From contig NC_011979.1 in the NCBI RefSeq assembly GCF_000022265.1, forward strand, positions 4,020,001-4,052,000: a stretch of DNA of 32,000 nt. The letters run 5' to 3'. Shown here in pieces: positions 10,445 through 29,085 of this stretch. The notes beneath the pieces were generated by a model. It saw nothing but the letters and a program-made list of their open reading frames with translations. It had not been told where the DNA came from and ran no database searches. Position numbers and translations under genes: made by a program. Positions within the stretch are counted from its first letter, which is position 1. The number at the start of each line of letters is the position of its first letter. This DNA is from Geotalea daltonii FRC-32. Its GTDB lineage: Bacteria; Desulfobacterota; Desulfuromonadia; Geobacterales; Geobacteraceae.

Positions 10445-10614
10445 GCGCCTTCCTCCTTTCTTTTGGTTTCGGGTAGTTTACCCCGCCAAAGTCAGGAAGT
10501 ATCGGGAAATAATGCAATTCCTTCAACTACCGCCAGTCTCGGTAGGCCAGTTTCCTGTTTATGTTGCCATGCATGCGGCAACACCTACTGTCTTTGACTT
10601 TGGCAAAACTATAT
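10445..10614 (-). promoter_or_regulatory. Possible rplJ (L10) autoregulatory leader
   Basis: An unusually long 170-nt rplA-rplJ spacer. It contains at least two hairpins: GTTGCC-ATGCATGC-GGCAAC near 10561-10580 and CTACCG-CCAGTCT-CGGTAG near 10528-10546. Assigned by position and analogy only, with no covariance model run. Confidence 0.3.
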
Positions 10615-11316: not shown

Positions 11317-11337
11317 TTTCTTTCACCCTCTCTTTAT

Positions 11338-11760
11338 CTATACAATCTCAACGCCCATACTGCGAGCGGTTCCCTCAATGGTTTTCATGGCGGCTTCAAG
11401 ACTGGCGGCATTCAGGTCGGGCATTTTTTTCGAAGCAATTTCCTGCACCTGGGCCTTCGTCAGTTTTCCGACCTTATTCTTGTTGGGAACGCTTGAACCG
11501 CTTTCGATGCCAAGCGCTTTTTTAATAAGAACAGAAGCCGGAGGTGTCTTGGTGACGAACGTAAATGACCTGTCCGCATAAACAGTTATCACTACAGGAG
11601 TAATTGTGCCTTCGTCTGCCTGAGTCTTGGCATTAAAGGCCTTGCAGAATTCCATTATGTTTACGCCGTGCTGACCCAGCGCAGGACCGATCGGCGGGGC
11701 GGGATTTGCTTTACCGGCCGGTACTTGAAGCTTGATATATCCAGTGATTTTTTTAGCCAT
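11338..11760 (-). CDS. rplK: 50S ribosomal protein L11
   Basis: 140-aa ORF reading [44 protein letters not shown]..., the canonical L11. Confidence 0.97.
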
Positions 11761-11825
11761 TACTAGACTCCTTTTATCTGTTCCTTAAATCAATTTATAT
11801 CTTCAGGTCGCAGGTAGAGCCAGAG

Positions 11826-12353
11826 TCATTGTTTTTCGACCTGCATGAATTCCAGCTCCACAGGGGTAGCTCTGCCGAATATACTAACCATGACCCTAAG
11901 CTTGCCTTTTTCAGGTTTCACATCTTCTACAACCCCGGCAAAATTAAGAAAAGGTCCATCAATAACCCTGACGGTCTCACCAACCTCAAAAAGAACCTTG
12001 GGCCGTGGCTTCTCGGCTCCCTCTTCCATACGCTGGGTGATTTTTGCTACTTCTTCATCCGGAATGGCAAAAGGATTATTGCCTCCGACAAAACCGGTAA
12101 CCTTTGAAGTTTCCTTGACGACATGCCAGGTATCGTCATCAAGCTCCATATTAACAAGGATATATCCAGGGAAGAATTTACGGGACGAGGTTCGCTTCTC
12201 ACCCTTCTTCAACTCGACAACTGTTTCACAAGGAATGAGAACTTCACCAAACTTTTCCTCAAGGCCAAGGTTTTTTATTCGCTCCAGGAGCGATAACCTG
12301 ACTTTATTTTCAAAGCCGGAGTAGGTATGTACACCGTACCATTTATGAGCCAT
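11826..12353 (-). CDS. nusG: Transcription termination/antitermination factor NusG
   Basis: 175-aa ORF starting M..KWY.VHTYSGFENKV, with a C-terminal KOW motif (GETVRVIDGPF..F.G.VE.V). It sits between secE and rplK as usual. Confidence 0.95.
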   Translation of the reverse strand: MAHKWYGVHTYSGFENKVRLSLLERIKNLGLEEKFGEVLIPCETVVELKKGEKRTSSRKFFPGYILVNMELDDDTWHVVKETSKVTGFVGGNNPFAIPDEEVAKITQRMEEGAEKPRPKVLFEVGETVRVIDGPFLNFAGVVEDVKPEKGKLRVMVSIFGRATPVELEFMQVEKQ

Positions 12354-12363
12354 TGTGAGTCCT

Positions 12364-12558
12364 CTAGCGGAGTATGAACCTGATCAGCTTGGCCAGGACA
12401 ACATCACAAGCGCCAAGATAAAGGGAGATCAAGACAATAATCACTACAACAACCCATGCTGTAGAAATGGTCTCCTTGCGGGCAGGCCAGGTAACCTTAC
12501 CCAACTCAGCTCTCACTTCCTCCAAAAAATTTTTGGTCTTTACCAGCACTCGTGCCAC
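12364..12558 (-). CDS. secE: Preprotein translocase subunit SecE
   Basis: 64-aa ORF with the conserved F..EV..EL.KV.WP.R.E motif followed by a single TM helix. It is in the canonical position upstream of nusG. Confidence 0.9.
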   Translation of the reverse strand: MARVLVKTKNFLEEVRAELGKVTWPARKETISTAWVVVVIIVLISLYLGACDVVLAKLIRFILR

Positions 12559-12585
12559 CCCACAGTAATTAGGTTTTTAAAAAAA

Positions 12586-12662
12586 TGGCAGGCCAGGAGG
12601 GATTCGAACCCACAACACCCGGTTTTGGAGACCGGTGCTCTAGCCGTTAGAGCTACTGGCCT
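12586..12662 (-). tRNA. tRNA-Trp (anticodon CCA)
   Basis: Reverse complement is AGGCCAGTAGCTCTAACGGCTAGAGCACCGGTCTCCAAAACCGGGTGTTGTGGGTTCGAATCCCTCCTGGCCTGCCA. It folds as a cloverleaf with a perfect 7-bp acceptor stem, anticodon loop CTCCAAA, a TTCGAAT T-loop and an encoded CCA. The T-stem has a U-U mismatch at 50:64. Confidence 0.93.
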
Positions 12663-12701
12663 GCATGAATGAGCCACACAGCGGAGTGGCTCATTTTCGA
12701 A

Positions 12702-12851
12702 TTATTTTGTTTCCTTATGTGACGTGTGCGTACGACAGAAGCGGCAGTACTTCTTCAGTTCCAGCTTTTCCGGTGTTGTCTTCTTGTTTTTTGTCGTTGT
12801 ATAGTTTCTCTGCTTGCACTCGGTGCAGGCAAGTGTGATGATATCTCGCAT
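12702..12851 (-). CDS. rpmG: 50S ribosomal protein L33
   Basis: Not listed in the ORF track because it is under 60 aa. My translation is [49 protein letters not shown]. It has the 4-Cys zinc-ribbon L33 signature and the canonical tuf-rpmG-tRNA-Trp-secE position. Confidence 0.9.
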
Positions 12852-12905
12852 TGCTGCCTTCCTTTGTCTTGATCAGCAAAGGCGGGGTTGGCCCGCCTCT
12901 GTGAA

Positions 12906-14096
12906 TTATTCGATAATAGAGCTGACAACCCCGGCGCCGACAGTGCGGCCGCCCTCACGGATGGCGAAGCGAAGTCCTTCGTCCATGGCGATTGGGGTGA
13001 TCAGGTTCACTTGTACTGCTACGTTGTCGCCGGGCATTACCATCTCGGTGCCGGCGGCAAGTTCTACTATGCCGGTCACGTCGGTGGTGCGGAAGTAGAA
13101 CTGGGGACGATAGCCGTTGAAGAACGGGGTGTGTCGTCCACCTTCTTCTTTGGTCAGAATGTAGGCTTCTGCCTTGAATTTGGTGTGCGGGGTGATTGAA
13201 CCGGGCTTGGCGAGTACCTGGCCACGCTCGATGTCTTCACGCTTGACGCCACGAAGCAGAGCGCCGATGTTGTCGCCGGCACGGCCTTCATCCAAAAGCT
13301 TCCTGAACATTTCTACGCCGGTTACGGTGGTCTTGGAGGTTGCCTTCATTCCGACGATCTCTACTTCTTCGCCGACCTTGACGATGCCTCTTTCTACACG
13401 GCCGGTTGCTACGGTTCCACGGCCGGAGATGGAGAATACGTCTTCGACGGGCATGAGGAACGGACGGTCGATGGCGCGCTGTGGCTCTGGGATGTAGCTG
13501 TCTACGGCTTCCATGAGCTTCATGATGGCGGGCTCGGCCAGTTCGCCCTGCTCGCCGTTCAGTGCCTGAAGGGCGGAGCCTTTGATGATGGGGATGTCGT
13601 CGCCGGGGAAGTCGTAGGAGGAGAGCAGTTCACGAATCTCGAGTTCTACCAGTTCGAGAAGCTCTTCGTCGTCGACCATGTCGGCTTTGTTGAGGAATAC
13701 TACTATGTAAGGTACGCCTACCTGACGGGCGAGCAGAATGTGCTCACGAGTCTGGGGCATTGGACCGTCGGCTGCGGATACGACCAGGATGGCGCCATCC
13801 ATCTGCGCTGCTCCGGTGATCATGTTCTTTACGTAGTCGGCGTGGCCCGGGCAGTCAACATGGGCATAGTGACGCTTGTCGGTTTCATATTCAACATGGG
13901 CGGTGGCGATGGTGATACCACGCTCACGCTCTTCGGGTGCATTGTCGATCTGGTCGAAGGCTTTGAATTCTGCCTGGCCTTTGCCTGCCAGTACTTTGGT
14001 GATGGCGGCGGTCAGGGTGGTCTTGCCGTGGTCAACGTGCCCGATGGTGCCTATGTTTACATGCGGTTTGGTTCTTTCGAATTTTGCTTTTGCCAT
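12906..14096 (-). CDS. tuf: Elongation factor Tu
   Basis: 396-aa ORF reading [33 protein letters not shown]..., with the DCPGHADY and NKAD GTPase motifs. A GGGAGGA RBS lies upstream. Confidence 0.99.
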
Positions 14097-14162
14097 GAAG
14101 GTATCCTCCCTATAAATGAATGCCTAAAAGTTCGTTTTACCGATTTTTTTGAACAGATTAAA

Positions 14163-14238
<76 letters not shown>

Positions 14239-14251
14239 GATCGAAGAAAAT

Positions 14252-14328
14252 TGGAGCGGGAAACGGGACTCGAACCCGCGACCCTCAGCTTGGAAGGCTG
14301 ATGCTCTAGCCAACTGAGCTACTCCCGC
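14252..14328 (-). tRNA. tRNA-Gly (anticodon TCC)
   Basis: Reverse complement is GCGGGAGTAGCTCAGTTGGCTAGAGCATCAGCCTTCCAAGCTGAGGGTCGCGGGTTCGAGTCCCGTTTCCCGCTCCA. It is a cloverleaf with anticodon loop CTTCCAA and an encoded CCA. Confidence 0.93.
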
Positions 14329-14441
14329 CAATTCCTGCAAATCAGAAGATTTTTGAATCGATAAGCAGCACAGCAACCCAGTACATGCGACATAAAGTCT
14401 CCTGAGGCCTGTCGTGATCTCATCTCTTCTGTAGTATTTTA

Positions 14442-14526
14442 TGGTGGAGGGAGGAGGATTCGAACCTCCGAAGTCTACGACGACAGATTTACAGTCTGTT
14501 CCCTTTGGCCGCTCGGGAATCCCTCC
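14442..14526 (-). tRNA. tRNA-Tyr (anticodon GTA), long variable arm
   Basis: Reverse complement is GGAGGGATTCCCGAGCGGCCAAAGGGAACAGACTGTAAATCTGTCGTCGTAGACTTCGGAGGTTCGAATCCTCCTCCCTCCACCA. This is close to E. coli tRNA-Tyr as I recall it, with anticodon loop CTGTAAA. Confidence 0.94.
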
Positions 14527-14549
14527 AGACGAAGAACGTTTCCTGACTG

Positions 14550-14625
14550 TGGAGCTGGCGATGGGACTCGAACCCGCAACCTGCTGATTACAAGTCAGCT
14601 GCTCTACCAATTGAGCTACGCCAGC
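14550..14625 (-). tRNA. tRNA-Thr (anticodon TGT)
   Basis: Reverse complement is GCTGGCGTAGCTCAATTGGTAGAGCAGCTGACTTGTAATCAGCAGGTTGCGGGTTCGAGTCCCATCGCCAGCTCCA. It has a perfect acceptor stem and anticodon loop CTTGTAA. The T-stem has one C-A mismatch and one G-U pair. Confidence 0.9.
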
Positions 14626-19562: not shown

Positions 19563-20990
19563 TTATATTGGCAAACTTAAACTGGCACGCAAGCCTTTAT
19601 CCGGCAGATTGTCAAGCTGGATGCCACCCCCGTGAAGAATGGCGACTTCTCTCACGAAGTTGAGGCCCAGGCCAGTGCTCTTCTTGCCGGTGTCGGGGCG
19701 TTGCAGGGAAAAGAACCTATTGAATATCTTATCCCTGCAATACTCGGGAATTCCGGGGCCCTCATCATCGACCACAATAACAAGAGCTCCTTCAGCAACA
19801 GTTGCGGTTATCGCAATGGTTCCCCCTGAGGGGCTGAAATCAATGGCGTTCTGAACTATATTGGAAACAGCCTGGTGAAGTAGAAACAGATCCCCTGGTA
19901 CGCTGGCACCCTCATCCACATGAAATGCAATTTGCAGCCCCTTGCGTGACAGGATAGGACCCTTGCTTTCCAGCACAGCGGTGAGAAGCCCATTAAGACA
20001 AACGGGCTCCACATTTTGCAGGGTCTTTCTTGCCTCAAGTTCGGACAGCTTAAGCATGCGGTCCACCAGGTCCTGGATCCGGTTGGCCTCGGTACGGATG
20101 TTGGAAAGGAACAGCTGCCGCTTCTCCGTCGGCATCTGCTCATCCAGAAGTTCCGCCGCTCCTTTGATGGCAGAAAGAGGACTCTTTATTTCATGGGTAA
20201 GGGTCTGGACGTACCGTTCCACATATTTTTTCCCTTCCAGGGCCTCACGCATATCTTCCAGAGCCAGGCCCATATCCCGCAATTCCGTGCGCCCCAACGG
20301 GGGAAGCCTCGGCCTTTTCCCATCGCGGATCTTATTGGCATACCTGGTGAGTCTTTTGATGGGATGGGTCAGCCACAAAGATACGACAAAAGAAAGGGCA
20401 ATAGCCGACGCCGCTGCAAGGTACCAGAGCTTGAGGATTCTGGGTCTTTCGCTGTTGACAAAGGCATTGATGTTGGTGGTCGGTTTGGCCACCGTCACTA
20501 CTCCTGCATTTTTCCCATGAATGATGATAGGTGCTGCAACAAACAGTATGGACGTCCTGGGGTCCTTAGGATCCAGGCGAGTAGTCCTTGTGCCGTATTC
20601 CCCTTTCAGTGTCAGGGAAACGTCCCGCCACCTGGAGTAATCCGCGCCGACGTTCTTGGGTTCCAGTGAATCGAAGATCACTTTTCCCGAAGGGTCGGTG
20701 ATGTATATGCGAAGGTCCACACGCTTCTTCTGGAATCCATAAATGCGCGCTGTAAGGGAGCGGGAATAGGCGTGATCAAAAGCCTTGTACAGATCCTGCG
20801 GATTAAAGCGTCCGGTCTCCATCTGCGTTCCCACCATGGCCGCCAGCAGCGTGGCGTGGTCCGCAAGGGGATCTTCCACGCTTTCCAGAAAAAATGTCCT
20901 CAGGTCCTTGAAGAATTGGCTGGCCGGGTATGAAAAGCAGATGACTGAGATAAGGAGGTAGGCGAGAAAAATCCGTGCTGCCAGCTTCAT
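19563..20990 (-). CDS. Sensor histidine kinase, CreC-like
   Basis: 475-aa ORF with two TM helices bracketing a sensor domain of about 170 aa. It has an H-box (THEIKSPLSAIKGAAELL) and HATPase N/G boxes (NAIDFSP..., DEGPGIP, GLGLNFV). The sensor segment ADYSRWRDVSLTLKGEYGTRTT and the region around the H-box closely resemble E. coli CreC as I recall it. The start overlaps the response-regulator stop by 4 nt (ATGA). Confidence 0.85.
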   Translation of the reverse strand: MKLAARIFLAYLLISVICFSYPASQFFKDLRTFFLESVEDPLADHATLLAAMVGTQMETGRFNPQDLYKAFDHAYSRSLTARIYGFQKKRVDLRIYITDPSGKVIFDSLEPKNVGADYSRWRDVSLTLKGEYGTRTTRLDPKDPRTSILFVAAPIIIHGKNAGVVTVAKPTTNINAFVNSERPRILKLWYLAAASAIALSFVVSLWLTHPIKRLTRYANKIRDGKRPRLPPLGRTELRDMGLALEDMREALEGKKYVERYVQTLTHEIKSPLSAIKGAAELLDEQMPTEKRQLFLSNIRTEANRIQDLVDRMLKLSELEARKTLQNVEPVCLNGLLTAVLESKGPILSRKGLQIAFHVDEGASVPGDLFLLHQAVSNIVQNAIDFSPSGGTIAITATVAEGALVIVVDDEGPGIPEYCRDKIFNRFFSLQRPDTGKKSTGLGLNFVREVAILHGGGIQLDNLPDKGLRASLSLPI

Positions 20991-21667
20991 AGGTCTTCCC
21001 TCAGGGCATACCCTGTTCCCCGATAGGTTACAATAGGGTCTTTGCCTGGCTCAATTGTTCTCAGTTTCGCTCTGATGTTTTTTATATGGGCGTCAATGGT
21101 CCGGTCAAGACTGCAGTCAGGATGCTCCCAGACGATCTGCATAAGCTGATCCCGGGAAAAAACATGACCGGGCCGTCGGATGAAGGTCTTGAGGATGTCG
21201 AACTCATAGCGGGAGAGATCCAAGACCCTGCCAAGATAGGAAATCTGGCGTTTCGACTCATTCACTGCGAATGTCCCGGTACATGGAGAAGGCTTGTTGC
21301 CTGTGCCGGTCCTTCTCAACACAGCCTTGACCCTGGCCGACACCTCCCTGGGGCTGAAAGGTTTGGTAATGTAATCGTCGGCGCCGATCTCCAGGCCAAC
21401 AATCCGGTCGATCTCATCGGCGCGGGCGGTAAGAAAAATGATTGGGACGGAACGAAGTTGCCGTATCTGTTTGCACAGTTCGAATCCGCTCATGTCCGGC
21501 AGGCCGACATCGAGAATGATGAGATCGACAGCATGATCCGCCAGCGAAGAAACAACCTGTGTCCCTGATGGAAAACAGAGCGTCTCGAATCCCTCTGTTT
21601 CAAGGGCATATTGAATAGCGTCGACAATTCCAGGTTCGTCCTCGACGATCATTATTCGCGGCTTCAT
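20987..21667 (-). CDS. OmpR/PhoB-family response regulator, CreB-like
   Basis: 226-aa ORF. The receiver domain reads IMIVEDEPGI...LIILDVGLPDMSGFELC, and the winged-helix output reads LSRYEFDILKTF...DRTIDAHIKNIRAKLR...YRGTGYAL. Several blocks match E. coli CreB as I recall it. Confidence 0.88.
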   Translation of the reverse strand: MKPRIMIVEDEPGIVDAIQYALETEGFETLCFPSGTQVVSSLADHAVDLIILDVGLPDMSGFELCKQIRQLRSVPIIFLTARADEIDRIVGLEIGADDYITKPFSPREVSARVKAVLRRTGTGNKPSPCTGTFAVNESKRQISYLGRVLDLSRYEFDILKTFIRRPGHVFSRDQLMQIVWEHPDCSLDRTIDAHIKNIRAKLRTIEPGKDPIVTYRGTGYALREDL

Positions 21668-21712: not shown

Positions 21713-23083
21713 TCAGCTTGCTCTTTTCTCTTTTGTTTCCCTGATTATGTCAATCTTTTTCTTCAGCAGGTTGAGGACAAGCCAGCCCAGAAAAATACAG
21801 AGGGTTGCAACCAGCACGAAAACCGAGTGTTCCAGATACCGCGGCCCATATCGGTGGAGGGAGCCGTTCAGCAGGGGCATGAAGACGGAGATTGCAAGGT
21901 ACCAGGCGAAGGGAGCAAATACGACATTGGAAACGGACTGAATTTCTGAGGCTATCGCGGTCTCGGCAGCGGAAGATTTTTTACGGCAAAGGCGGCCGAC
22001 CATCCGTTCCGCCGCCAGATAGGTGATTACCAGGATCGGCACATATATCAGCATCCCCGCCAGCCTGTGGACCCGTTCCGGTGTGGCCCATTCGCCATAG
22101 ATGTCTGCCCGGTACAAATAGATGGAGATCATAATCCTGAAACTGTTGCCCAAGAGTGTCACCAGATAGGCCGAAATAATGCTGATGACAAGCCAGGCCC
22201 ATTTCTTCATTGGGTTGTCCAATCGGGAAACGAGGGTAAAGAAGATGGTGGCAAAACAGATAATGAAAAAATTAACTCCCGCACAGGCCGGGGCAATGAC
22301 GACGCGGCTGGCAAGGCTGACAAAACCGACGGCAGGATCGTACTGGAACTGGATGCCGGTGATGAGCTCCACCAAAAAGGCAAGGGGTTGCAGAACCCAG
22401 ACCAGATCGTCTACTCCTGCTGTGCTGTAAAAGCCCTTGAGGGACAAAATCACTATCATGCCCAACCCATACAAAGGGAGGTTCTTCCTCGTTACCCCTT
22501 TGTCCGTCCGCCGCCGTCTGTTTCTTTGCCAGTTCCGCCAACACGACAGTACCCGCTTCACTGGCCCCTTGCCGAAACAGTTGACCATAAAGGAGAGAAA
22601 AACGATCCGGCTGTCGAGGAAGAGGCTGTAGGAGCCTGCATACCTGTCGTCAAAAAATCTGCTGACGCTTCGCCCTTTGCCGGCAAAGAGTTGCGCCAGC
22701 CCCGTCATGCCGGGTTTGCACCGCCAGCGGCCCAAGGCGGGATCCTGCCAGTCAAGGCGCGTCACATCCTCCATAGTCATCGGACGAGGCCCGACCATGG
22801 ACATGGAGCCCCCGAGGACATTGAAAAACTGCAACAGTTCGTCAAGCCCTGTTGCCCGGATCCATCCCCCGACCCTCGTCACCCGTCCTTCCCGCATGCT
22901 TCGAAACTTGTAGATGCGAAACATGCGCATTTCTTTTCCAAGCCTCTCCTGCACAAAAAGAACCGGTCCTCCATCTTCGAGAAGAATCAGCAGGGTAACA
23001 ACGAAAAAGACAGGGAGAAAGACAACCAGGCCAATGGATGCAGCGACCATGTCAAAGATGCGTTTTATGGGATTCTGTTTCAT
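21713..23083 (-). CDS. Fusion protein: small PglC-like polyprenyl-phosphate sugar phosphotransferase (aa ~1-175) plus an exosortase/archaeosortase-family polytopic domain (aa ~200-445)
   Basis: The N-terminal half carries Bac_transf hallmarks. These are a re-entrant helix with Pro (LVVFLPVFFVVTLLILL), GGPVLF.QER.G, FRIYKFRSM, the GLDELLQFFNVL Asp-Glu dyad, MVGPRP and KPGMTGLAQ. A highly basic linker (WRNWQRNRRRRTDKGVTRK) follows, then about 7 TM helices. These carry the three exosortase signature residues in order and context: APAC267AG (22283-22285), GNSFR316I (22136-22138) and RVH339RLAG (22067-22069). Called by motif, with no HMM run. The start overlaps the upstream radical SAM stop (ATGA). 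Confidence 0.75.
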   Translation of the reverse strand: MKQNPIKRIFDMVAASIGLVVFLPVFFVVTLLILLEDGGPVLFVQERLGKEMRMFRIYKFRSMREGRVTRVGGWIRATGLDELLQFFNVLGGSMSMVGPRPMTMEDVTRLDWQDPALGRWRCKPGMTGLAQLFAGKGRSVSRFFDDRYAGSYSLFLDSRIVFLSFMVNCFGKGPVKRVLSCWRNWQRNRRRRTDKGVTRKNLPLYGLGMIVILSLKGFYSTAGVDDLVWVLQPLAFLVELITGIQFQYDPAVGFVSLASRVVIAPACAGVNFFIICFATIFFTLVSRLDNPMKKWAWLVISIISAYLVTLLGNSFRIMISIYLYRADIYGEWATPERVHRLAGMLIYVPILVITYLAAERMVGRLCRKKSSAAETAIASEIQSVSNVVFAPFAWYLAISVFMPLLNGSLHRYGPRYLEHSVFVLVATLCIFLGWLVLNLLKKKIDIIRETKEKRAS

Positions 23084-24501
23084 GACGCCGGCGTAACCTC
23101 CGTTTCTTTTAGACCAGGCCGGATCCCGACCTCCTGCTCCTCCCGCTGCGCAGTCAGCAGAACCGACTCCAGAACTCCCCTCATTGAAATCAAGCCTTTA
23201 AACTTGATCATTGCATTCCAAAGGGGTTCAAAGCGCTTCCACCCTCCCGCGTACATAAGATGCCGCACACGGTTCGGAAACAGCGAATGGGCGCTGCTTG
23301 CCTTAAGGATGGAGCCCCACCGGTAAAACTCCCGGTAAGCAAGGTCATACCCTGCTTTCAATTGGTCTGCCGTCATTCCCTTGGGCTGGTAAACCACATG
23401 ACGGGTATCATACAAGTCCCAGTCACTGCTCTGGATGCGCCCATCACCATCGAGGGTCCGAAACAGCGCCGTACCGGGATATGGTGTCAGAATATGAAAT
23501 GTTGCCGTGGTGATACCCCGCTCAATGGCCCAGGATGCGGTACGCCTGAATATATCCGGGCCGTCGCTGTCCAGGCCGAAGACGAAGCTGCCGTTGATGA
23601 AAACACCCAGGTCATCCAGGCGGCGGATCACTCGATCGTAGTCCCGTCCCAGGTTCTGTCGTTTGTTGCTCGCCTGGAGATTCCGGGGATCGATGGATTC
23701 GAAACCAATAAAAATACTTCGAAGTCCTGCCTCCACGGCTCTTTCGATCAGGTCGCCTTCAAGGATGGAATCGACCGTCGCCGCCCCCTGAAAGAGTCTA
23801 TTCATGCCGCGCATGCCATCGAACAGATTTGCGGCGAAGTGCCGGTCCCCCAGCAGATGATCGTCCAGAAAATAGAGATGACGTCCCGGGAGGCTCTCAA
23901 TTTCAGCGAGCGCTGCATCGACGCGTTGGGTATAGAAAGAGGCGCCACCCTGAAAAAAACTATCCTTATAGCAGAAATTGCAGTGATGGGGACAGCCGCG
24001 GGAGACGACCAGGGAGTTAGGCACCAGATATAGTTCCCACTTGATCAGATCGCGGCGTGGGGGTGGCACACCCATGAGGGAACGGTTCGGAGAAAAATAA
24101 ACAAGTCTTGGTTCTCTCCGCCGGAAATCTGCAAGGAAAGCGGGAAACGTATCTTCACCAGGCCCGAGAAAAATGGCGTCGGCATGAAGTTTTGCCTCTT
24201 CAGGCAAAGAAGTTACATGCAGACCTCCCATAGCCACGAAAACGCCCTTTGACCGGTAATGATCGGCAATCATGTATGAGCGGCGGGCGCTTGTAACATA
24301 GGCTTGAATCACCACCAAATCGGGATGATCGCTGGTATCAAGTTCTTCCACATGTTCATCGACAAGCTCAACTTCATCGTCCGGCGACAGAAAAGCGGCA
24401 AGGGTTGCAAGTCCAAGGGGTGGAAACAATGAATACTTTATGGGACGCCAGAATGGACTTTTTGCCTCTATCAAGGCGGGCAAAATCATTTTCACTTTCA
24501 T
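23080..24501 (-). CDS. B12-binding-domain radical SAM protein (class B rSAM, DUF4070-like C-terminus)
   Basis: 473-aa ORF. The N-terminal cobalamin-binding-like domain reads ILPAL...FPPLGLATLAAFL...DLVVIQAYVTSA...VAMGGLHVT. The CxxxCxxC motif is SRGC170PHHC174NFC177YKD (23971-23994). An AAGGAGA RBS lies 5 nt upstream of the ATG. Confidence 0.88.
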   Translation of the reverse strand: MKVKMILPALIEAKSPFWRPIKYSLFPPLGLATLAAFLSPDDEVELVDEHVEELDTSDHPDLVVIQAYVTSARRSYMIADHYRSKGVFVAMGGLHVTSLPEEAKLHADAIFLGPGEDTFPAFLADFRRREPRLVYFSPNRSLMGVPPPRRDLIKWELYLVPNSLVVSRGCPHHCNFCYKDSFFQGGASFYTQRVDAALAEIESLPGRHLYFLDDHLLGDRHFAANLFDGMRGMNRLFQGAATVDSILEGDLIERAVEAGLRSIFIGFESIDPRNLQASNKRQNLGRDYDRVIRRLDDLGVFINGSFVFGLDSDGPDIFRRTASWAIERGITTATFHILTPYPGTALFRTLDGDGRIQSSDWDLYDTRHVVYQPKGMTADQLKAGYDLAYREFYRWGSILKASSAHSLFPNRVRHLMYAGGWKRFEPLWNAMIKFKGLISMRGVLESVLLTAQREEQEVGIRPGLKETEVTPAS

Positions 24502-24590: not shown

Positions 24591-26588
24591 TTACTTGATC
24601 ACCTTTCCCTGTCGCCGGTATCGTTCAAGCCCGAGGAGCGCGGCAGCCACGACAATGAACAGCACCGTGAGGCCGGGTTCCGGCACGGAGGTGCATCCCA
24701 CGGCCAGATTGGAAACACCTGCGGGAAGTGGCAATGGCTGGTCCACATTATCCGCTGCGCCTTCTTTGTTTCGAACCTCTTCAAGAACGGCAATGAATGA
24801 TGTATACGGAGTGAGCAGGTTGTAGTCGAGCCCGAGATTCGTTACCTCTCTCCTGGTGTCAGAATTTTCCCCCTGGACATTGTAATTCGACAGTCTTGCG
24901 ATACGAGAACGGGCCCAGAGGTATTTCAGGGGGGCATGGTCTGAAAGGGGTTTGGTTTCTTTGACGTAAAAAGTTCGGGTATATTTGCCTGCTGCGGTTT
25001 TACCGGTAAGCTCAATTTCGCCGATCGGTTTGCCGCGCCACTTGCCGTACAAAACCAGGGGGCGCTGGGCAAAGAGATCGGGAATGGTCGCCGGTTCCAC
25101 ATTGTAGGCCTCAAATTCTTTGAATTTGACATGAACGCCGGTCAACAGGGGGGACGCCACATACTTGCGGAAGCGATCCGAGGCTTCCTTCGCCTCTTCC
25201 GGCTTCGTTACCACGAAGGACTCCCCTTGGCCCGCCTGGGCAATACCGTCCACCAGGTAGCGATTGATGCTCGACCCGATACCGAAGGAGAAGACATTGG
25301 TGGTATCCAGATTTTCGGAAATCAGCTTGAAACTCTCCCGTTCCGCACTGATAAAGCCGTCGGTGATGATAACCGCCGTACGGGCTTTACCCTTTTCCCG
25401 CGGCAGGGACAGGGCTTTATTCAGGGCGGCAGCTAGCTCAGTTCCGCCTCCTCCCTGCTGGGAATCGATGAGTCTGATCGCTTTCGTGATATTTTCACTG
25501 GTTGCAGGAATGGACGAAGGATCCATGACCTGTGAGCCGCCGGCAAAAAGGACCAGGTTGAACGTGTCAGTGGGACGGAGGTTGCCGATCAGGTCCCGGA
25601 TCAGAGTCTTCGCCGTATCGAGGGGAAAGCCGTGCATGGAACCGGAAACATCCAGGACAAAGATGTATTCCCGAGGCAGGATCTCAGCCGCCTGCACCTT
25701 TTCCGGAGGCTGGACCATAAGAAGAAAGAAGTTCTCCTTCTCCCCTTGATAAAGCATGAGCCCGCTCTGAATCTCCTTGCCGGCAAGGCGGTATTTGAGG
25801 ATGAAGTCCCGATTGGCCGCAAACCCTCCCGATTTCACAAGAGCCGCAGTGACCATAGATTTGTCCAACCATGACAGATCCACCTTGTGGGAAGGACTGA
25901 CCACTTCCTGGATCGGTATCGAGGTGGAGAGAAAGACATTGATGTTAAAAGCAGTAGCCGGAGTTTTCCCCTCCTTGAGATAGGGTGATTTTACCCATTT
26001 GTCGCGCTCTGGAGCGTCCGCCTCTTTCTGATTGGAATACCTGGGTCCGACAACGGTAGGGTAGACGAATTCATAGGTTCCATCCGTCGGCACCAGGAGC
26101 TCGGCATAGTGTAGCTCGATCTGCACCTCATCCCGGGGCATGATGTTTGCGAGGCTCATGGAGAAAACATTCGGCCGTTGCTCCTCCAGGAGCGAGGCGC
26201 TCTTTCCTTCGGCCTTGGCCTTGACGAATTCGGCTTTGGCGGCCTCTTTCTCCTTGATTCGGGCTGTAACGACACGTTTGCCAACCGTCATCTTCATGCC
26301 ATGAACGGAAGCCCTAGTTGAGGCGGGGAAACAGTATCGGGCGTTAATGGGCCGAGTGCCGTTGTTGACATACTTCTGCGTAACGGTGACATCGGCGATG
26401 ACGCCGTTGATGGTGACCTTGACGTCGGTATTCTTCAACGGAAGCCGGTCAACGGCAGGGTCACCATGCTCGATGAAGAAGTAGGGGGAAAGGGTTTTAT
26501 CGCCCCCGTTTTCACTGGAGGCATGGGCAGGCATCTGCGGGATAAGTGAACTGATTAAACAAACTAGGGCAAGCAACTTCGTCTTCAT
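24591..26588 (-). CDS. Secreted VIT-domain plus von Willebrand factor A protein with a C-terminal PEP-CTERM sorting signal
   Basis: I chose the start MKTKLLALVCLISSLIPQMPAHASS (ATG 26586-26588) because it gives a clear signal peptide and AAGGAGG lies 6 nt upstream. The track's 55-aa N-terminal extension is low-complexity and crosses the promoter region. The VIT-like block is LPLKNTDVKVTINGVIADVTVTQKYVN...YCFP....SVHGMKM.VG.R...A.IKEKEAAK. The VWA domain has a MIDAS motif (IFVLDVSGSM). The C-terminus is SVPEPGLTVLFIVVAAALLGLERYRRQGKVIK. Confidence 0.88.
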   Translation of the reverse strand: MKTKLLALVCLISSLIPQMPAHASSENGGDKTLSPYFFIEHGDPAVDRLPLKNTDVKVTINGVIADVTVTQKYVNNGTRPINARYCFPASTRASVHGMKMTVGKRVVTARIKEKEAAKAEFVKAKAEGKSASLLEEQRPNVFSMSLANIMPRDEVQIELHYAELLVPTDGTYEFVYPTVVGPRYSNQKEADAPERDKWVKSPYLKEGKTPATAFNINVFLSTSIPIQEVVSPSHKVDLSWLDKSMVTAALVKSGGFAANRDFILKYRLAGKEIQSGLMLYQGEKENFFLLMVQPPEKVQAAEILPREYIFVLDVSGSMHGFPLDTAKTLIRDLIGNLRPTDTFNLVLFAGGSQVMDPSSIPATSENITKAIRLIDSQQGGGGTELAAALNKALSLPREKGKARTAVIITDGFISAERESFKLISENLDTTNVFSFGIGSSINRYLVDGIAQAGQGESFVVTKPEEAKEASDRFRKYVASPLLTGVHVKFKEFEAYNVEPATIPDLFAQRPLVLYGKWRGKPIGEIELTGKTAAGKYTRTFYVKETKPLSDHAPLKYLWARSRIARLSNYNVQGENSDTRREVTNLGLDYNLLTPYTSFIAVLEEVRNKEGAADNVDQPLPLPAGVSNLAVGCTSVPEPGLTVLFIVVAAALLGLERYRRQGKVIK
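24594..24686 (-). other. PEP-CTERM sorting signal (VPEP, hydrophobic helix, Arg-rich tail) at the C-terminus of the VIT/VWA protein
   Basis: The encoded sequence is VPEP-GLTVLFIVVAAALLGL-ERYRRQGKVIK-stop. This is the tripartite architecture of the PEP-CTERM domain recognised by exosortases. Confidence 0.8.
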
Positions 26589-26652
26589 GGTAAACCTCCT
26601 TGTATTGCAGGTTGCCGTAACTTCCGGCTCATTGTTGAGTCGAATGTACACG

Positions 26653-26696
26653 ATGAAATTGAAGTGAATTTGAAGTGGGGATGAAAAAAGTGTGAA
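26653..26696 (-). promoter_or_regulatory. Phased TTCA(C/T/A) direct-repeat array (cre-tag-like) upstream of the VIT/VWA gene
   Basis: Minus strand reads TTCAC-ACTTTT-TTCAT-CCCCAC-TTCAA-A-TTCAC-TTCAA-T-TTCAT. Four pentamers start exactly 11 bp apart, and two more form a second 11-bp register offset by 6 bp. The first pair matches TTCACnnnnnnTTCAC at 9 of 10 positions. The array ends 64 nt upstream of the ATG. Confidence 0.45.
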
Positions 26697-26710
26697 AAAA
26701 GGGGAGGACA

Positions 26711-26742
26711 AATAAAAAGGCCGTGGAAAAAATTCCACGGCC
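26711..26742 (-). terminator. Rho-independent terminator after the short-type asd
   Basis: Minus strand reads GGCCGTGGAA-TTTT-TTCCACGGCC, a 10-bp perfect stem, followed by TTTTTATTT. It starts about 25 nt after the asd stop. Confidence 0.85.
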
Positions 26743-26767
26743 TTGTCAGACATTAATGTTGCTTGAA

Positions 26768-27787
26768 CTATTTAAGGTACTTCTCGATGAGAATCTCCGC
26801 AATCTGCACCGCATTGGTGGCCGCCCCTTTGCGGATATTGTCCGCTACCACCCACAGGTTCAGGCCATTTTCGATAGATTCATCCTTGCGAATCCGCCCG
26901 ACCTGGACAAAATCCTGCCCGGCTGCATCAACAGGCATGGGATATATACCTTCTGCAACGTCATCAACCAGCTCACAGCCCGGTGCCGCAGCGATCAGCT
27001 CCATGGCCGTCGCAACAGAAATCTCCTTCGCTGTCTCAATATTGATCGATTCGGAGTGGCCGAAGAAAACGGGAATCCGCACCGCAGTCGCAGTAACCTT
27101 GATGTCGGCTTCCATTATCTTGCGCGTTTCATTGACCATCTTCATCTCTTCCTTGGTGTAACCGTTATCGCAGAAGGAATCGATCTGGGGCAGACAGTTG
27201 AAGGCAATCTGATGGGGGTAAACTTCGGTGTTGGCAGGACGGCCATTGAGAAGCTCTCCCACTTGGACACGCAGTTCTTCAATGGCTTTCTTGCCGGTAC
27301 CGGAAACGGCCTGATAGGTGGAAACGACGATGCGCTTGATCTGGGCATGGTCATGGAGGGGTTTGAGAGCTACCACCATCTGGATGGTGGAACAGTTGGG
27401 ATTGGCGATAATCCCTTTCTTCTTGTACCCGGCAATGGCGTGGGCATTCACCTCCGGCACCACCAGAGGCACATCCGCGTCCATGCGCCAGGCGCTTGAA
27501 TTATCGATGCAGATTGCCCCGGCTTTGGCAGCAGAGGGGCAAAACTCTTTGGAACGCTCCCCTCCTGCGGAAAAGAGCGCGATATCAATGCCGTCGAAAG
27601 AATCATGGGTCAATTCCTCCACCAGGACCGCCTTGCCCTTAAATTCCAGTATTTCTCCCGCACTGCGGCTGCTGGCCAGATATTTTATCTTCCCTACCGG
27701 GAAATCACGCTCCTCAAGACACTCGATCATCTGGGCGCCAACCGCGCCGGTGGCGCCGACAATGGCTATATTCCATTTTTTACTCAT
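26768..27787 (-). CDS. asd: Aspartate-semialdehyde dehydrogenase, short (Gram-positive / Vibrio Asd2-like) class
   Basis: 339 aa from ATG 27785-27787 (MSKKWNIAIVGATGAVG...). The track's start at 27793 is a TTG only 3 nt from the GGGGAG RBS. The active-site Cys context (IIANPNCSTIQ) and the His context (PVFFGHSESI) are both retained. Confidence 0.9.
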   Translation of the reverse strand: MSKKWNIAIVGATGAVGAQMIECLEERDFPVGKIKYLASSRSAGEILEFKGKAVLVEELTHDSFDGIDIALFSAGGERSKEFCPSAAKAGAICIDNSSAWRMDADVPLVVPEVNAHAIAGYKKKGIIANPNCSTIQMVVALKPLHDHAQIKRIVVSTYQAVSGTGKKAIEELRVQVGELLNGRPANTEVYPHQIAFNCLPQIDSFCDNGYTKEEMKMVNETRKIMEADIKVTATAVRIPVFFGHSESINIETAKEISVATAMELIAAAPGCELVDDVAEGIYPMPVDAAGQDFVQVGRIRKDESIENGLNLWVVADNIRKGAATNAVQIAEILIEKYLK

Positions 27788-27812
27788 TACCAATATCTCC
27801 CCTTAAATACGT

Positions 27813-27984: not shown

Positions 27985-29085
27985 TTATTTCTCGAGGAGT
28001 ATGCGGAGCATTCTCCGCAACGGCTCCGCCGCCCCCCACAACAGCTGATCGCCACAAGTAAAGGCCGACAGGTATTGGGGGCCCATCTTCATCTTCCGTA
28101 CCCGGCCGACCGGGACGGTCAGCGAACCGGACACCGCCGTCGGAGTCAGTCCGGTTAACGTCTCTGCCTTGGTATTGGGTACAAACTTTACCCACTGATT
28201 GTCATTCTTGATCAAGCTCTCGATGTCGGCAATGGGTATATCCTTATTCAGCTTTATGGTCAGGGCCTGGCTGTGGCAGCGCATGGCGCCGACCCGCACA
28301 CAGATGCCATCTACAGGGATCGGCGAAGAGGTGCCGAGGATCTTGTTGGTCTCGGCATAACCTTTCCACTCCTCACGGCTTTGCCCGTCTTCCACCTCCC
28401 GGTCGATCCAGGGAAGAACGCTTCCGGCCAGAGGAAAGCCGAACTCCTTGGTGGGCAAGGAGCCATCCCGCAGGGTGGTGGTCACCTTGCGGTCGATCTC
28501 CAGGATTGCAGAAGCAGGGTTTTTCAGTTCCTCGGCAACCACGCCGTGGAGAACCCCCATCTGGCTTAACAGCTCACGCATATTGGGAGCGCCTGCACCA
28601 CTTGCCGCCTGATAGGTCATGGAGGTGAGCCACTCCACCAGACCTGCCCGAAACAACCCGCCAAGCCCCATGAGCATCAGGCTGACGGTGCAGTTGCCGC
28701 CGATGAAATCCTTCTGCCCTTTGGCCAGGGCGGCGTCTATGACGTTACGGTTTACCGGGTCGAGGATGATGACCGCATTGTCTTCCATACGCAGTGTGCT
28801 GGCGGCGTCTATCCAATAGCCCTGCCATCCCTGCTTGCGCAGCTCGGGGTGTACGGCCTTGGTGTAATCACCACCCTGGCAGGTGATGATAATATCGAGC
28901 TTTTTCAATTCCTCGATATCATCGGCCTTTTTCAGGGTTCCGGCATTCATGGGGGCAGGCTGACCGGCCTGTGAGGTGGTAAAAAATACCGGCTCGAAAC
29001 CGAAACTGAAATCTTTTTCCTCCTGCATCCGCTGCATGAGGACCGATCCAACCATACCGCGCCAACCGACAATTCCGACTTTCAT
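27985..29085 (-). CDS. asd: Aspartate-semialdehyde dehydrogenase, long (E. coli-type) class
   Basis: 366-aa ORF alignable along its whole length with E. coli Asd as I recall it. Matching blocks include [76 protein letters not shown] and [17 protein letters not shown]. Confidence 0.95.

What the first reader, a model, noticed from the sequence alone, without database searches (positions are those of the whole stretch)
21713..23083. Single polypeptide fusing a PglC-like phosphoglycosyl transferase to an exosortase domain
Seen directly:
- Residues 1-175 have every hallmark of a small monotopic polyprenyl-phosphate sugar-phosphate transferase. These are the re-entrant helix with Pro, KFRSM, the Asp-Glu dyad in GLDELLQ, VGPRP and KPGMTGLAQ.
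- Residues ~200-445 form about 7 TM helices carrying the ordered Cys/Arg/His signature of exosortases/archaeosortases: ACAG at aa 267, NSFRI at aa 316 and VHRLAG at aa 339.
- The two halves are joined by an Arg-rich linker that is presumably cytoplasmic.

Inference: the acceptor onto which exosortases transfer cleaved PEP-CTERM proteins is still unknown, as far as I know. A physical fusion to the enzyme that makes polyprenyl-PP-sugar suggests the acceptor here is a lipid-linked sugar, or a glycan built on it. That would mean sorting and glycolipid priming are coupled in one machine. I know of exosortase fusions to CPBP-type proteases (the VPEID-CTERM system), but I do not recall a described sugar-transferase fusion.
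Basis: partly seen in the sequence, partly recalled or inferred. Interest (0 to 1): 0.85.

Follow-up and report, generated by a model that had tools for sequence, protein, structure and literature searches.

The report
One-off sugar-transferase–exosortase K gene fusion
A single Geotalea daltonii gene really does join a small sugar-phosphate transferase to a protein-sorting exosortase, but it is a one-strain fusion of two neighbouring operon genes that each occur without the other in relatives, so it hints at, rather than shows, that sorted proteins are attached to a lipid-linked sugar.

Summary
The 456-aa ORF lies on the minus strand at 21713-23083 of Geotalea daltonii FRC-32. It joins a complete minimal PglC/WbaP-type phosphoglycosyl transferase (aa 1-~196) to a full-length exosortase K (aa ~197-456). 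Cys267, Arg316 and His339 are invariant in 28 homologues. Three independent read sets reproduce the frame.

The fusion is a singleton. An exhaustive search of 1.84 billion representative proteins found none matching both halves.

XrtK belongs to a widespread dedicated cassette: VIT-vWA cargo with a PEP-CTERM tail, then XrtK, CreB and CreC. None of about 80 species-representative loci has a transferase or radical SAM gene nearby.

Close relatives form a series:
- L175: rSAM, PGT and XrtK as separate genes.
- L176: rSAM and XrtK, no PGT.
- Geomonas: rSAM, PGT and CreBC, with no XrtK and no cargo.

So each half works without the other. The "Arg-rich linker" is the transferase clade's own C-terminal tail. 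The two active sites are inferred to face opposite sides of the membrane, and no flippase is encoded in the cassette.

Best reading: a lineage-specific, topologically permissive fusion of adjacent genes. The glycolipid-acceptor idea stays possible for this lineage (about 15%) but is not supported as a general rule.

The parts
21713..23083 (-). Fused ORF of 456 aa (PGT::XrtK). NCBI names it 'glycosyltransferase', Geotalea daltonii FRC-32.
   Evidence: ORF listed. Identical protein P0001. Reproduced in three Logan assemblies at 100% DNA identity.
22550..23083 (-). Monotopic phosphoglycosyl transferase catalytic domain (aa 1-~178). It has a re-entrant helix with Pro24, KFRSM (aa 59-63), the Asp81-Glu82 dyad (nt 22838-22843), VGPRP (aa 97-101) and KPGMTGLAQ (aa 123-131).
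   Evidence: Pfam PF02397 E=2e-43. Aligns to PDB WbaP 8t53 and PglC 8e37/8g1n. pN/pS is 0.18 against the close strain L178 over aa 1-128.
22496..22570 (-). Arg-rich segment (aa 172-196, GKGPVKRVLSCWRNWQRNRRRRTDKG). This is the native C-terminal tail of the PGT clade, here serving as the junction. It is inferred to be cytoplasmic.
   Evidence: The same tail occurs in unfused P0016, P0020, P0031, P0033, P0034, the L175 PGT and the Geomonas PGT. The junction DNA reads through with no stop or start codon.
21713..22495 (-). Exosortase K domain (aa ~197-456, full length apart from about 17 N-terminal residues). Cys267 is nt 22283-22285, Arg316 is nt 22136-22138 and His339 is nt 22067-22069.
   Evidence: TIGR04287 133 bits and TIGR04178 40.9 bits. 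Invariant C/R/H in alignment A1. AlphaFold pLDDT above 90 over most of aa 200-455, with dips near aa 320-340 and 370-390. Stand-alone XrtKs of 270-290 aa align from aa ~197.
23080..24501 (-). B12-binding radical SAM gene. Its stop overlaps the fusion's start (ATGA). It is the recurrent partner of this PGT clade.
   Evidence: Pfam B12-binding plus Radical_SAM. Adjacent to or fused with PGT in L010, L011, L175 and L179. pN/pS 0.06.
24591..26588 (-). VIT-vWA secreted protein, the presumed sole cargo of XrtK. The likely start is M56 at nt 26588; the longest ORF runs to 26753. The PEP-CTERM tail VPEPGLTVLFIVVAAALLGLERYRRQGKVIK is nt 24594-24686.
   Evidence: Pfam VIT plus VWA, and 425 bits to TIGR03788, the sortase target. 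The tail motif VPEP[EG]-TM-basic is conserved in most of the cargo genes examined.
20987..21667 (-). CreB-type response regulator of the cassette.
   Evidence: NF008296 CreB 316.9 bits against a cut-off of 273. It follows XrtK in most loci.
19563..20990 (-). CreC-type sensor histidine kinase of the cassette.
   Evidence: NF008312 CreC 597 bits against a cut-off of 356. It follows the RR in most loci.
26717..26744 (-). Terminator-like hairpin (12-bp stem plus T-run) after asd. It marks the upstream boundary of the cassette.

Best explanation
The gene is a lineage-specific, in-frame fusion of two genes that lie next to each other in one operon.

The operon is a CreBC-linked cell-surface cassette: VIT-vWA cargo, B12-radical SAM, PGT::XrtK, CreB, CreC.

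The C-terminal half is the dedicated exosortase K.
- Its Cys267/Arg316/His339 site is inferred to lie in the periplasmic leaflet.
- It is inferred to cleave the VPEP-TM-basic tail of the adjacent VIT-vWA protein and pass the new C-terminus to an unknown acceptor.

The N-terminal half is a minimal monotopic phosphoglycosyl transferase.
- It works at the cytoplasmic face and transfers a sugar-1-phosphate to polyprenyl phosphate.
- It acts together with the upstream radical SAM enzyme as an accessory module that some cassettes have and most lack.

The fusion arose by small deletions. These removed the PGT stop codon, a spacer of about 37 nt, and the first ~17 codons of xrtK.

The fusion is tolerated because the PGT C-terminus and the XrtK N-terminus are both cytoplasmic.

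Shown:
- the architecture and intact motifs;
- the fusion being a singleton;
- the unfused and partial cassettes in relatives;
- purifying selection on the PGT half.

Inferred:
- the topology;
- the cargo assignment;
- the operon structure;
- independence of the two activities.
For: Domains and motifs.

Singleton status:
- Among 325 scored homologues none is fused.
- In the exhaustive phmmer search of 1.84e9 representatives the top hit is 239 bits, on the XrtK half only. Every listed hit covers essentially one half, aa ~6-194 or aa ~195-455. The one partial exception is P0016, whose match runs to aa 241.
- No plasmid record covers 80% or more of the query.

Core cassette: VIT-vWA, XrtK, RR and HK occur in about 80 species-representative loci with no PGT or rSAM hit within 8 kb. 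The cargo PEP-CTERM tail is conserved.

Series in close relatives:
- L175 is unfused: rSAM 87%, PGT 72% (197 aa), XrtK 55% (278 aa), RR 79% and HK 77% identity.
- L176 has rSAM-XrtK and no PGT.
- Geomonas sp. Red32 has rSAM-PGT-RR-HK with no XrtK or cargo.

Junction: the tail is native to the PGT clade. Relative to L175, the stop, the spacer and the GTG start are missing.

Topology: K/R-rich loops at aa 288-296 and 360-383, and a K/R-rich C-tail. C267 and H339 sit at helix starts and R316 near a helix end.

Selection: pN/pS is 0.18 for the PGT N-terminus and 0.06 for rSAM against a strain of 97-99% identity.

No strong terminator-like hairpin was found between the cassette genes, and a strong one lies upstream.
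Against: - Gene fusions are enriched for functionally linked partners, and PGT and XrtK are also adjacent in L175. True coupling is therefore not excluded.
- No close relative could be read across the junction. The L178 contig stops at aa 128. It is unknown how old the fusion is or whether it is maintained.
- No expression, activity or topology data exist.
- The AlphaFold model gives no confident PGT half (single-sequence depth) and no coordinates to test a domain interface.
- The census of ~80 loci used tblastn with the window's own PGT and rSAM at E<=1e-8. It would miss a very distant PGT, or one lying further than 8 kb away.
Confidence: 0.6

Rival explanations
1. Functional coupling. The polyprenyl-PP-sugar made by the attached PGT may be modified by the radical SAM enzyme, then flipped and extended by enzymes encoded elsewhere. 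It is then the acceptor onto which XrtK transfers the cleaved VIT-vWA protein, or it is the donor that glycosylates the cargo. The fusion co-localises priming and sorting.
For: - PGT and XrtK are adjacent in L175 and fused here, always between the cargo gene and creBC.
- Both halves keep their catalytic residues, and the PGT half is under purifying selection.
- Exosortases are classically embedded in EPS loci that contain PF02397 transferases. Fusions were used as Rosetta stones for EpsH before (PMC1569441).
- The exosortase acceptor is unknown and transpeptidation is suspected (bioRxiv 10.1101/2023.06.07.544157).
Against: - XrtK works without any nearby PGT in about 80 of 80 species-representative cassettes and in L176.
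- The PGT-rSAM pair occurs with CreBC but without XrtK or cargo in Geomonas.
- The fusion is unique.
- The active sites are inferred to face opposite sides of the membrane, and the cassette has no flippase or glycosyltransferase.
- This PGT clade fuses promiscuously to unrelated domains: VanZ-like, rubrerythrin-like and rSAM.
Confidence: 0.17
2. One half is functionally dead, and the fusion merely tethers a remnant. For example, the PGT domain may survive only as an N-terminal cytoplasmic or interfacial extension of XrtK, or XrtK may be crippled by the loss of its ~17 N-terminal residues.
For: - The fusion is a singleton.
- The PGT clade lacks a 12-25-residue segment that PglC and WbaP have.
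- The N-terminus of XrtK is truncated relative to stand-alone homologues.
Against: - All diagnostic residues are intact in both halves.
- The missing loop is a clade-wide feature shared by many unfused, conserved homologues.
- pN/pS of 0.18 on the PGT N-terminus argues against decay.
- The lost XrtK residues are poorly conserved and lie upstream of TM1.
Confidence: 0.1
3. The ORF is effectively two proteins. Internal translation initiation, or proteolysis in the Arg-rich tail, yields a separate PGT and a separate XrtK, so the fusion has no consequence at protein level.
For: A Shine-Dalgarno-like GAGGAAG (nt 22484-22490) lies 9 nt upstream of a TTG codon (Leu204, nt 22472-22474) at the start of XrtK TM1. 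The ATG of Met209 follows.
Against: - The PGT frame has no stop codon, so the full-length product must be made as well.
- The TTG would start the protein inside TM1, downstream of where all homologues start.
- There is no experimental evidence.
Confidence: 0.08
4. A sequencing or assembly artefact created the fusion.
For: None found. It was considered because the architecture is unique.
Against: Three independent read-set assemblies reproduce the ORF base for base. The junction is a clean in-frame read-through.
Confidence: 0.02

Closest known systems
Exosortase K (XrtK, NCBIfam TIGR04287), within the exosortase/archaeosortase family (TIGR04178; Pfam PF09721 EpsH)
   Same: The C-terminal half scores well above all three curated cut-offs. 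It has the ordered Cys/Arg/His triad. It sits next to a PEP-CTERM protein. It is a full-length homologue, at up to 67% identity, of stand-alone XrtKs of 270-290 aa.
   Different: It carries a whole phosphoglycosyl transferase at its N-terminus and lacks about 17 N-terminal residues. No other XrtK among those found has this arrangement.
Small monotopic phosphoglycosyl transferases: PglC of Campylobacter (PDB 8e37, 8g1n) and the catalytic domain of WbaP (8t53)
   Same: A single N-terminal re-entrant helix with Pro. KFRSM, the Asp-Glu dyad, VGPRP and PGxTG are in register, with E about 1e-20 to 1e-23.
   Different: It belongs to a clade that lacks 12-25 residues between KFRSM and RxTxxG and has an Arg-rich C-tail. 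The clade is usually paired or fused with a B12-radical SAM enzyme. Its sugar substrate is unknown.
Proteobacterial dedicated sortase system (NCBIfam TIGR03788 target, TIGR03787 RR, TIGR03785 HK)
   Same: A one-enzyme, one-target cassette. The target is a homologous VIT-vWA protein (425 bits to TIGR03788) and is followed by an OmpR-type RR and an HK.
   Different: The sorting enzyme is an exosortase rather than a sortase. The signal is PEP-CTERM rather than LPXTG. The target, RR and HK all score below those families' cut-offs. The RR and HK instead pass the CreB and CreC cut-offs.
XrtA/PEP-CTERM EPS loci with the TIGR03013 PGT, and EpsH-CAAX protease fusions (Haft 2006, PMC1569441)
   Same: There is a known genomic association of exosortases with PF02397 transferases. 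There is also a precedent for exosortase fusions read as Rosetta stones.
   Different: In those loci the PGT is a large, separate, multi-TM enzyme in a full EPS locus serving many PEP-CTERM proteins. Here a minimal PGT is covalently fused, in a small cassette with one cargo and no EPS machinery.

Membership tests
Exosortase/archaeosortase family (TIGR04178, PF09721) | Score above the curated cut-offs of the family signature models | tested here: met
   TIGR04178 scores 40.9 against 23. PF09721 scores 30.4 against 25.7.
Exosortase/archaeosortase family (TIGR04178, PF09721) | Ordered, conserved Cys ... Arg ... His putative catalytic triad | tested here: met
   C267, R316 and H339 are invariant in 28 sequences. 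The triad is described in bioRxiv 10.1101/2023.06.07.544157.
Exosortase/archaeosortase family (TIGR04178, PF09721) | Polytopic membrane protein with the active site near the outer leaflet | tested here: inconclusive
   AlphaFold helices plus the positive-inside rule fit an N-in/C-in six-TM model with the triad at the periplasmic ends. No coordinates or experiment are available, and there is no solved homologue.
Exosortase/archaeosortase family (TIGR04178, PF09721) | Co-occurrence with proteins carrying a PEP-CTERM-type tripartite signal | tested here: met
   The adjacent VIT-vWA protein ends in VPEPG-TM-RYRRQGK. The motif is conserved in most of the cargo genes examined.
Exosortase/archaeosortase family (TIGR04178, PF09721) | Proteolytic or transpeptidase processing of the cargo C-terminus | not testable with these tools
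   This needs proteomics of the mature VIT-vWA protein.
Exosortase K subfamily (TIGR04287) | Score above the curated cut-off of the XrtK model | tested here: met
   133.3 bits against 55, covering aa 200-361. JGI and NCBI name the closest homologues 'exosortase K'.
Exosortase K subfamily (TIGR04287) | Stand-alone ~270-290-aa protein in a cargo-XrtK-RR-HK cassette (feature derived here from ~80 loci) | tested here: not met
   The cassette is present, but the protein is fused to a PGT and an rSAM gene is interposed.
Monotopic phosphoglycosyl transferase (PF02397; PglC-like) | Pfam Bac_transf above the gathering score | tested here: met
   148.4 bits against 27.
Monotopic phosphoglycosyl transferase (PF02397; PglC-like) | Asp-Glu catalytic dyad, KFR(S/T)M, PRP and PGxTG motifs, and a re-entrant helix with Pro | tested here: met
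   D81-E82, K59-M63, P99-R100-P101, P124-G128 and P24 align to WbaP and PglC. They are invariant in the clade alignment A5.
Monotopic phosphoglycosyl transferase (PF02397; PglC-like) | Transfer of sugar-1-phosphate to polyprenyl phosphate | not testable with these tools
   This needs an enzyme assay. The sugar specificity is unknown.
EPS/WcaJ/WbaP-type large PGTs (TIGR03025, TIGR03023, TIGR03022, TIGR03013) | Full-length match above the curated cut-offs (N-terminal TM bundle plus CoA-binding-like domain) | tested here: not met
   168, 141, 116 and 122 bits against cut-offs of 295-411. Only the C-terminal catalytic domain of those models is matched.
Proteobacterial dedicated sortase system (TIGR03788/03787/03785) | Target, RR and HK above the curated cut-offs; LPXTG signal; sortase enzyme | tested here: not met
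   Target 425 against 552, RR 150 against 336, HK 114 against 612. The signal is PEP-CTERM and the enzyme is an exosortase.
CreBC two-component system | RR and HK above the NCBIfam equivalog cut-offs | tested here: met
   CreB scores 316.9 against 273. CreC scores 597.1 against 356.

The most novel reading that the evidence does not exclude
In the G. daltonii/L175 lineage, the dedicated exosortase K does not simply release or lipid-anchor its single VIT-vWA cargo. It transfers the cleaved C-terminus onto a polyprenyl-diphosphate-linked sugar, possibly modified by the radical SAM enzyme, that is primed by the transferase attached to it. This would be the first identified exosortase acceptor. 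It would be a Gram-negative counterpart of sortase/lipid II and of T9SS/A-LPS anchoring.
Probability: 0.13. Interest if true: 0.85.

Novelty: new variant of a known kind. Interest (0 to 1): 0.45.

Why it matters
The acceptor of exosortase-sorted proteins is still unknown.

This locus offers an unusually simple test bed:
- one exosortase and one obvious cargo;
- one two-component regulator;
- a cultured host.

Nature has also supplied three comparison states. In G. daltonii the transferase is welded to the sortase. In L175 the two are separate. In most cassettes the transferase is absent. Comparing the mature cargo C-terminus across these states would show directly whether a lipid-linked sugar takes part.

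If it does not, the locus is still useful. It is a clean example of a topologically permissive operon-gene fusion, and a warning against reading every Rosetta-stone fusion as mechanistic coupling.

The survey also documents two things I found in no paper searched:
- The XrtK / VIT-vWA-PEP-CTERM / CreBC cassette is widespread: 110 loci in species-representative genomes.
- It parallels the sortase-based 'dedicated' system, with a homologous cargo.

Tried and rejected
1. Sequencing or assembly artefact. Rejected: three read sets reproduce the ORF.

2. My interim conclusion that the rSAM+PGT insertion is peculiar to G. daltonii (after). Withdrawn when the rSAM homologue search led to L175, L176 and Geomonas. 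Only the fusion itself is peculiar.

3. Combined MAFFT alignments of XrtK and PGT homologues to give AlphaFold depth for both halves (A3 and A4). These mis-registered the two families and were not used. The model from A1 therefore has a poor PGT half, and no interface could be assessed. The tool also returns no coordinates.

4. Metagenome scan with the PGT-clade alignment A5. It is uninformative except as a negative control.

5. Foldseek and sequence searches of the PDB for an exosortase structure. Nothing was found: best Foldseek E was 0.25 and there were no sequence hits.

6. Literature searches for XrtK, for exosortase fusions and for G. daltonii exosortase. Nothing relevant was found.

7. 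Base-level reconstruction of the fusion event from L175. The DNA is too diverged (72% amino-acid identity) to place exact deletion end-points.

8. L178, the only close but non-identical strain. Its contig ends at aa 128, so the junction could not be read.
Full report
**1. What is in the sequence**

The finding's coordinates hold one ORF on the minus strand, 21713-23083, of 456 aa with an ATG start.

HMM scans split it cleanly into two halves.
- N-terminal half: Pfam Bac_transf covers aa 7-167 (E=2e-43).
- C-terminal half: Pfam Exosortase_EpsH covers aa 259-359 (above its gathering score).
- NCBIfam exosortase K (TIGR04287) covers aa 200-361 with 133 bits against a cut-off of 55.
- The exosortase/archaeosortase signature TIGR04178 scores 40.9 against 23.

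The N-terminal half aligns to solved WbaP (8t53) and PglC (8e37, 8g1n) chains at E of about 1e-20 to 1e-23. KFRSM, Asp81-Glu82, VGPRP and PGMTG are in register. The large-PGT models (TIGR03025 and relatives) match only over their catalytic domain and fall below their cut-offs. This is therefore a small, PglC-like enzyme.

In an alignment with 27 stand-alone homologues, Cys267, Arg316 and His339 are invariant.

**2. It is not an artefact**

The protein is identical to 'glycosyltransferase [Geotalea daltonii FRC-32]'. The same ORF is present in three independent read-set assemblies (SRR29904085, SRR9436587, SRR9436588). All three are 100% identical to the window at DNA level. The junction is a plain in-frame read-through.

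**3. The fusion is unique**

- Among 325 scored homologues none has both domains. The nearest are stand-alone XrtKs of 270-290 aa (up to 67% identity) and stand-alone small PGTs.
- An exhaustive HMMER search of 1.84 billion cluster representatives gave a top score of 239 bits, on the XrtK half only. Every listed hit covers essentially one half, aa ~6-194 or aa ~195-455. The one partial exception is P0016, whose match runs from aa 6 to 241.
- No plasmid record covers 80% or more of the query.
- I found no paper on XrtK or on a PGT-exosortase fusion. Haft 2006 reports PF02397 genes near EpsH and EpsH-CAAX protease fusions, but not this one.

**4. The neighbourhood**

All genes around the ORF lie on the minus strand:
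- asd, followed by a strong terminator-like hairpin at 26717-26744;
- a VIT-vWA protein ending in VPEPGLTVLFIVVAAALLGLERYRRQGKVIK, a textbook PEP-CTERM signal;
- a B12-binding radical SAM gene whose stop overlaps the fusion's start;
- the fusion ORF;
- a response regulator and a histidine kinase that pass NCBIfam's CreB and CreC equivalog cut-offs;
- truA.

The VIT-vWA protein is homologous to the 'marine proteobacterial sortase target' (425 bits, below the cut-off). The cassette therefore mirrors the sortase-based dedicated system, with an exosortase in place of the sortase.

**5. What XrtK normally looks like**

An XrtK alignment retrieved 110 loci from species-representative genomes. Most are Desulfobacterota and Acidobacteriota, with some Binatia and Moduliflexus. 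Eighty were kept.

I ran tblastn with the six window proteins against these loci.
- The order is cargo, XrtK, RR, HK in nearly all of them.
- Identities are 50-71% for cargo, 31-48% for XrtK and 57-77% for RR and HK.
- No locus has a PGT or rSAM hit within 8 kb.

The cargo tail is conserved as ...GVSNLAVGG-x-VPEP[EG][LM], then a TM helix, then a basic cluster, in most loci.

Occasional unrelated insertions occur inside the cassette, in L013 and L067.

XrtK is thus a one-enzyme, one-target exosortase that ordinarily has no dedicated transferase.

**6. Where the PGT and rSAM come from**

The PGT half belongs to a distinct clade.
- It has the signature KFRSMR-GRVTRVG-W[IL]RATGLDE.
- It lacks 12-25 residues that PglC and WbaP have.
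- Its members end in an Arg-rich tail, GKRxVRxxLxRxRRxRR.
- P0033 stops right after that tail.

The clade fuses to varied C-terminal domains: VanZ-like, rubrerythrin-like and B12-rSAM. It recurs next to a B12-rSAM gene (L010; L011 is a fused form).

Searching with the rSAM protein showed a very conserved family, 65-99% identical across several phyla. Matching contig lengths led me to four informative loci.

| Locus | Gene order | Identity to the window proteins |
|---|---|---|
| L175 | cargo, rSAM, PGT (197 aa), XrtK (278 aa), RR, HK; PGT and XrtK separate with a 37-nt spacer | cargo 77%, rSAM 87%, PGT 72%, XrtK 55%, RR 79%, HK 77% |
| L176 | cargo, rSAM, XrtK, RR, HK; no PGT | rSAM 83% |
| L179, Geomonas sp. 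Red32 | rSAM, PGT (213 aa), RR, HK; no XrtK and no cargo | rSAM 81%, RR 69%, HK 72% |
| L178 | asd, cargo, rSAM, PGT; contig ends at aa 128 of the PGT | DNA 97-99% identical |

In a Chondrinema plasmid, a 66%-identical rSAM gene sits beside creD.

The rSAM gene, with or without the PGT, therefore looks like an accessory module tied to the CreBC unit. It is combined with the XrtK/cargo pair in some lineages only.

**7. How the fusion arose**

I aligned L175's two proteins to the fusion.
- The L175 PGT ends ...WWRAWRRSERRGSLLPC*.
- The L175 XrtK starts (V/M)KHHLGKIKSSASGPMKILRENGLLY.
- In G. daltonii the tail ...WRNWQRNRRRRTDKG runs straight into VTRKNLPLY.

The stop codon, the spacer, the GTG start and about 17 poorly conserved XrtK codons are missing. 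The region is about 70 nt shorter. The exact end-points cannot be placed at this level of divergence.

**8. Are both halves alive?**

All catalytic motifs are intact in both halves.

I measured pN/pS against L178.

| Region | pN/pS | Note |
|---|---|---|
| rSAM | 0.06 | |
| cargo | 0.20 | |
| first 128 PGT codons | 0.18 | 10 synonymous and 6 non-synonymous changes; small numbers |

This argues against decay of the PGT half.

**9. Topology (inferred)**

AlphaFold, run with the XrtK alignment, models most of aa 200-455 at pLDDT above 90, with dips near aa 320-340 and 370-390. The PGT half has no alignment depth and is poorly modelled.

The helix boundaries combined with K/R counts fit this layout:
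- the N-terminus is inside;
- TM1 spans aa 197-221;
- a periplasmic helix (aa 225-242) and a small sheet (aa 247-263) follow;
- Cys267 lies at the outer start of the next helix;
- there is a K/R-rich inner loop at aa 288-296;
- Arg316 lies near the outer end of the following helix;
- His339 lies at the outer start of the next;
- there is a K/R-rich inner loop at aa 360-383;
- two more helices follow, ending in a basic tail on the inside.

Monotopic PGTs have both termini and their active site at the cytoplasmic face. This is established for PglC and WbaP; it is my own knowledge, consistent.

The fusion is therefore topologically permissive, but the two active sites face opposite sides of the membrane. 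The cassette has no flippase or further glycosyltransferase.

No solved structure resembles XrtK, by sequence or by fold.

**10. Interpretation**

The most economical reading is a lineage-specific fusion of two adjacent operon genes whose products can work independently.
- XrtK sorts the neighbouring VIT-vWA PEP-CTERM protein.
- The PGT and the rSAM enzyme make some polyprenyl-linked sugar under the same CreBC control.

This cannot be general, because XrtK cassettes almost always lack a PGT. It also cannot be obligatory, because each gene occurs without the other.

It remains a live possibility for the L175/G. daltonii lineage. There the two genes always sit together between the cargo gene and creBC. 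I put it at roughly 13-17%.

Three other alternatives are less likely:
- a dead half;
- internal initiation at a TTG preceded by GAGGAAG;
- an artefact.

**11. Novelty and interest**

Both components and their loose genomic association are known kinds. The covalent fusion is new but is a singleton.

Its value is as a natural experiment in a cultured organism, with fused, split and absent states, for the open question of what exosortases attach their substrates to.

I score interest at 0.45 and novelty as a new variant of a known kind.

Noticed in passing
window 26588-26753 and 26717-26744 (minus strand): The longest ORF for the VIT-vWA gene (720 aa) runs through a strong terminator-like hairpin that follows asd. 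The real start is probably Met56 at nt 26588. That start gives a clear signal peptide (MKTKLLALVCLISSLIPQMPAHA) and a 665-aa product, matching the homologues.
   Followed up: partly
P0016, P0020 (also P0124, P0130, P0146) and P0034; loci L007, L010, L011: The minimal PGT clade fuses to several different domains at its C-terminus. These are a VanZ-like membrane domain, a rubrerythrin/ferritin-like domain (a recurrent ~432-aa form) and a B12-radical SAM domain. The Arg-rich tail always lies at the junction.
   Followed up: partly
window 23080-24501; L181 (Chondrinema litorale plasmid NZ_CP111045.1, 143229-144713): The B12-radical SAM protein belongs to a family that is 65-70% identical across Desulfobacterota, Bacteroidota, Verrucomicrobiota and Gammaproteobacteria. 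No function is assigned. In Chondrinema it lies next to creD, and in the Geobacterales-type cassettes it lies upstream of creBC. This suggests a Cre-regulon link.
   Followed up: partly
L179 (Geomonas sp. Red32, JAKLOY010000009.1), 10001-14236: This locus has a cassette of rSAM, PGT, CreB and CreC with no exosortase and no VIT-vWA cargo. It is flanked by a small He_PIG-domain lipoprotein-like gene on the other strand.
   Followed up: partly
L013 8780-13800; L067 2328-4880: Unrelated DNA is inserted inside otherwise canonical XrtK cassettes. L013 carries about 5 kb with an AAA ATPase, an amidohydrolase-like gene and a small radical SAM gene. L067 carries a TetR regulator and a glycoside-hydrolase-like gene.
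   Followed up: partly
L090 5836-7875: The cargo gene of this Thermoanaerobaculaceae MAG is split over three reading frames and lacks the PEP-CTERM tail. It may be a pseudogene or the result of long-read indel errors.
   Followed up: no
P0258 (585 aa): This XrtK homologue matches at its residues 18-238 and has an unexamined C-terminal extension of about 350 aa. It is possibly another XrtK fusion of a different kind.
   Followed up: no
window 26768-27793 and 27985-29085: Two different aspartate-semialdehyde dehydrogenase paralogues (asd_B type and asd_gamma type) lie side by side, immediately upstream of the cassette. The cassette itself sits between the housekeeping genes asd and truA, which is consistent with acquisition as a block.
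   Followed up: no
window 22472-22490 (minus strand): A Shine-Dalgarno-like GAGGAAG lies 9 nt before the TTG of Leu204 at the start of XrtK TM1, inside the fused ORF. It is a possible internal initiation site.
   Followed up: no
window 12589-12662 and 14166-14625: There are five tRNA genes. Four form a cluster between tuf and a YgiQ-type radical SAM gene, within the rpoBC / rplJ-rplA / nusG / tuf region. This looks ordinary.
   Followed up: no
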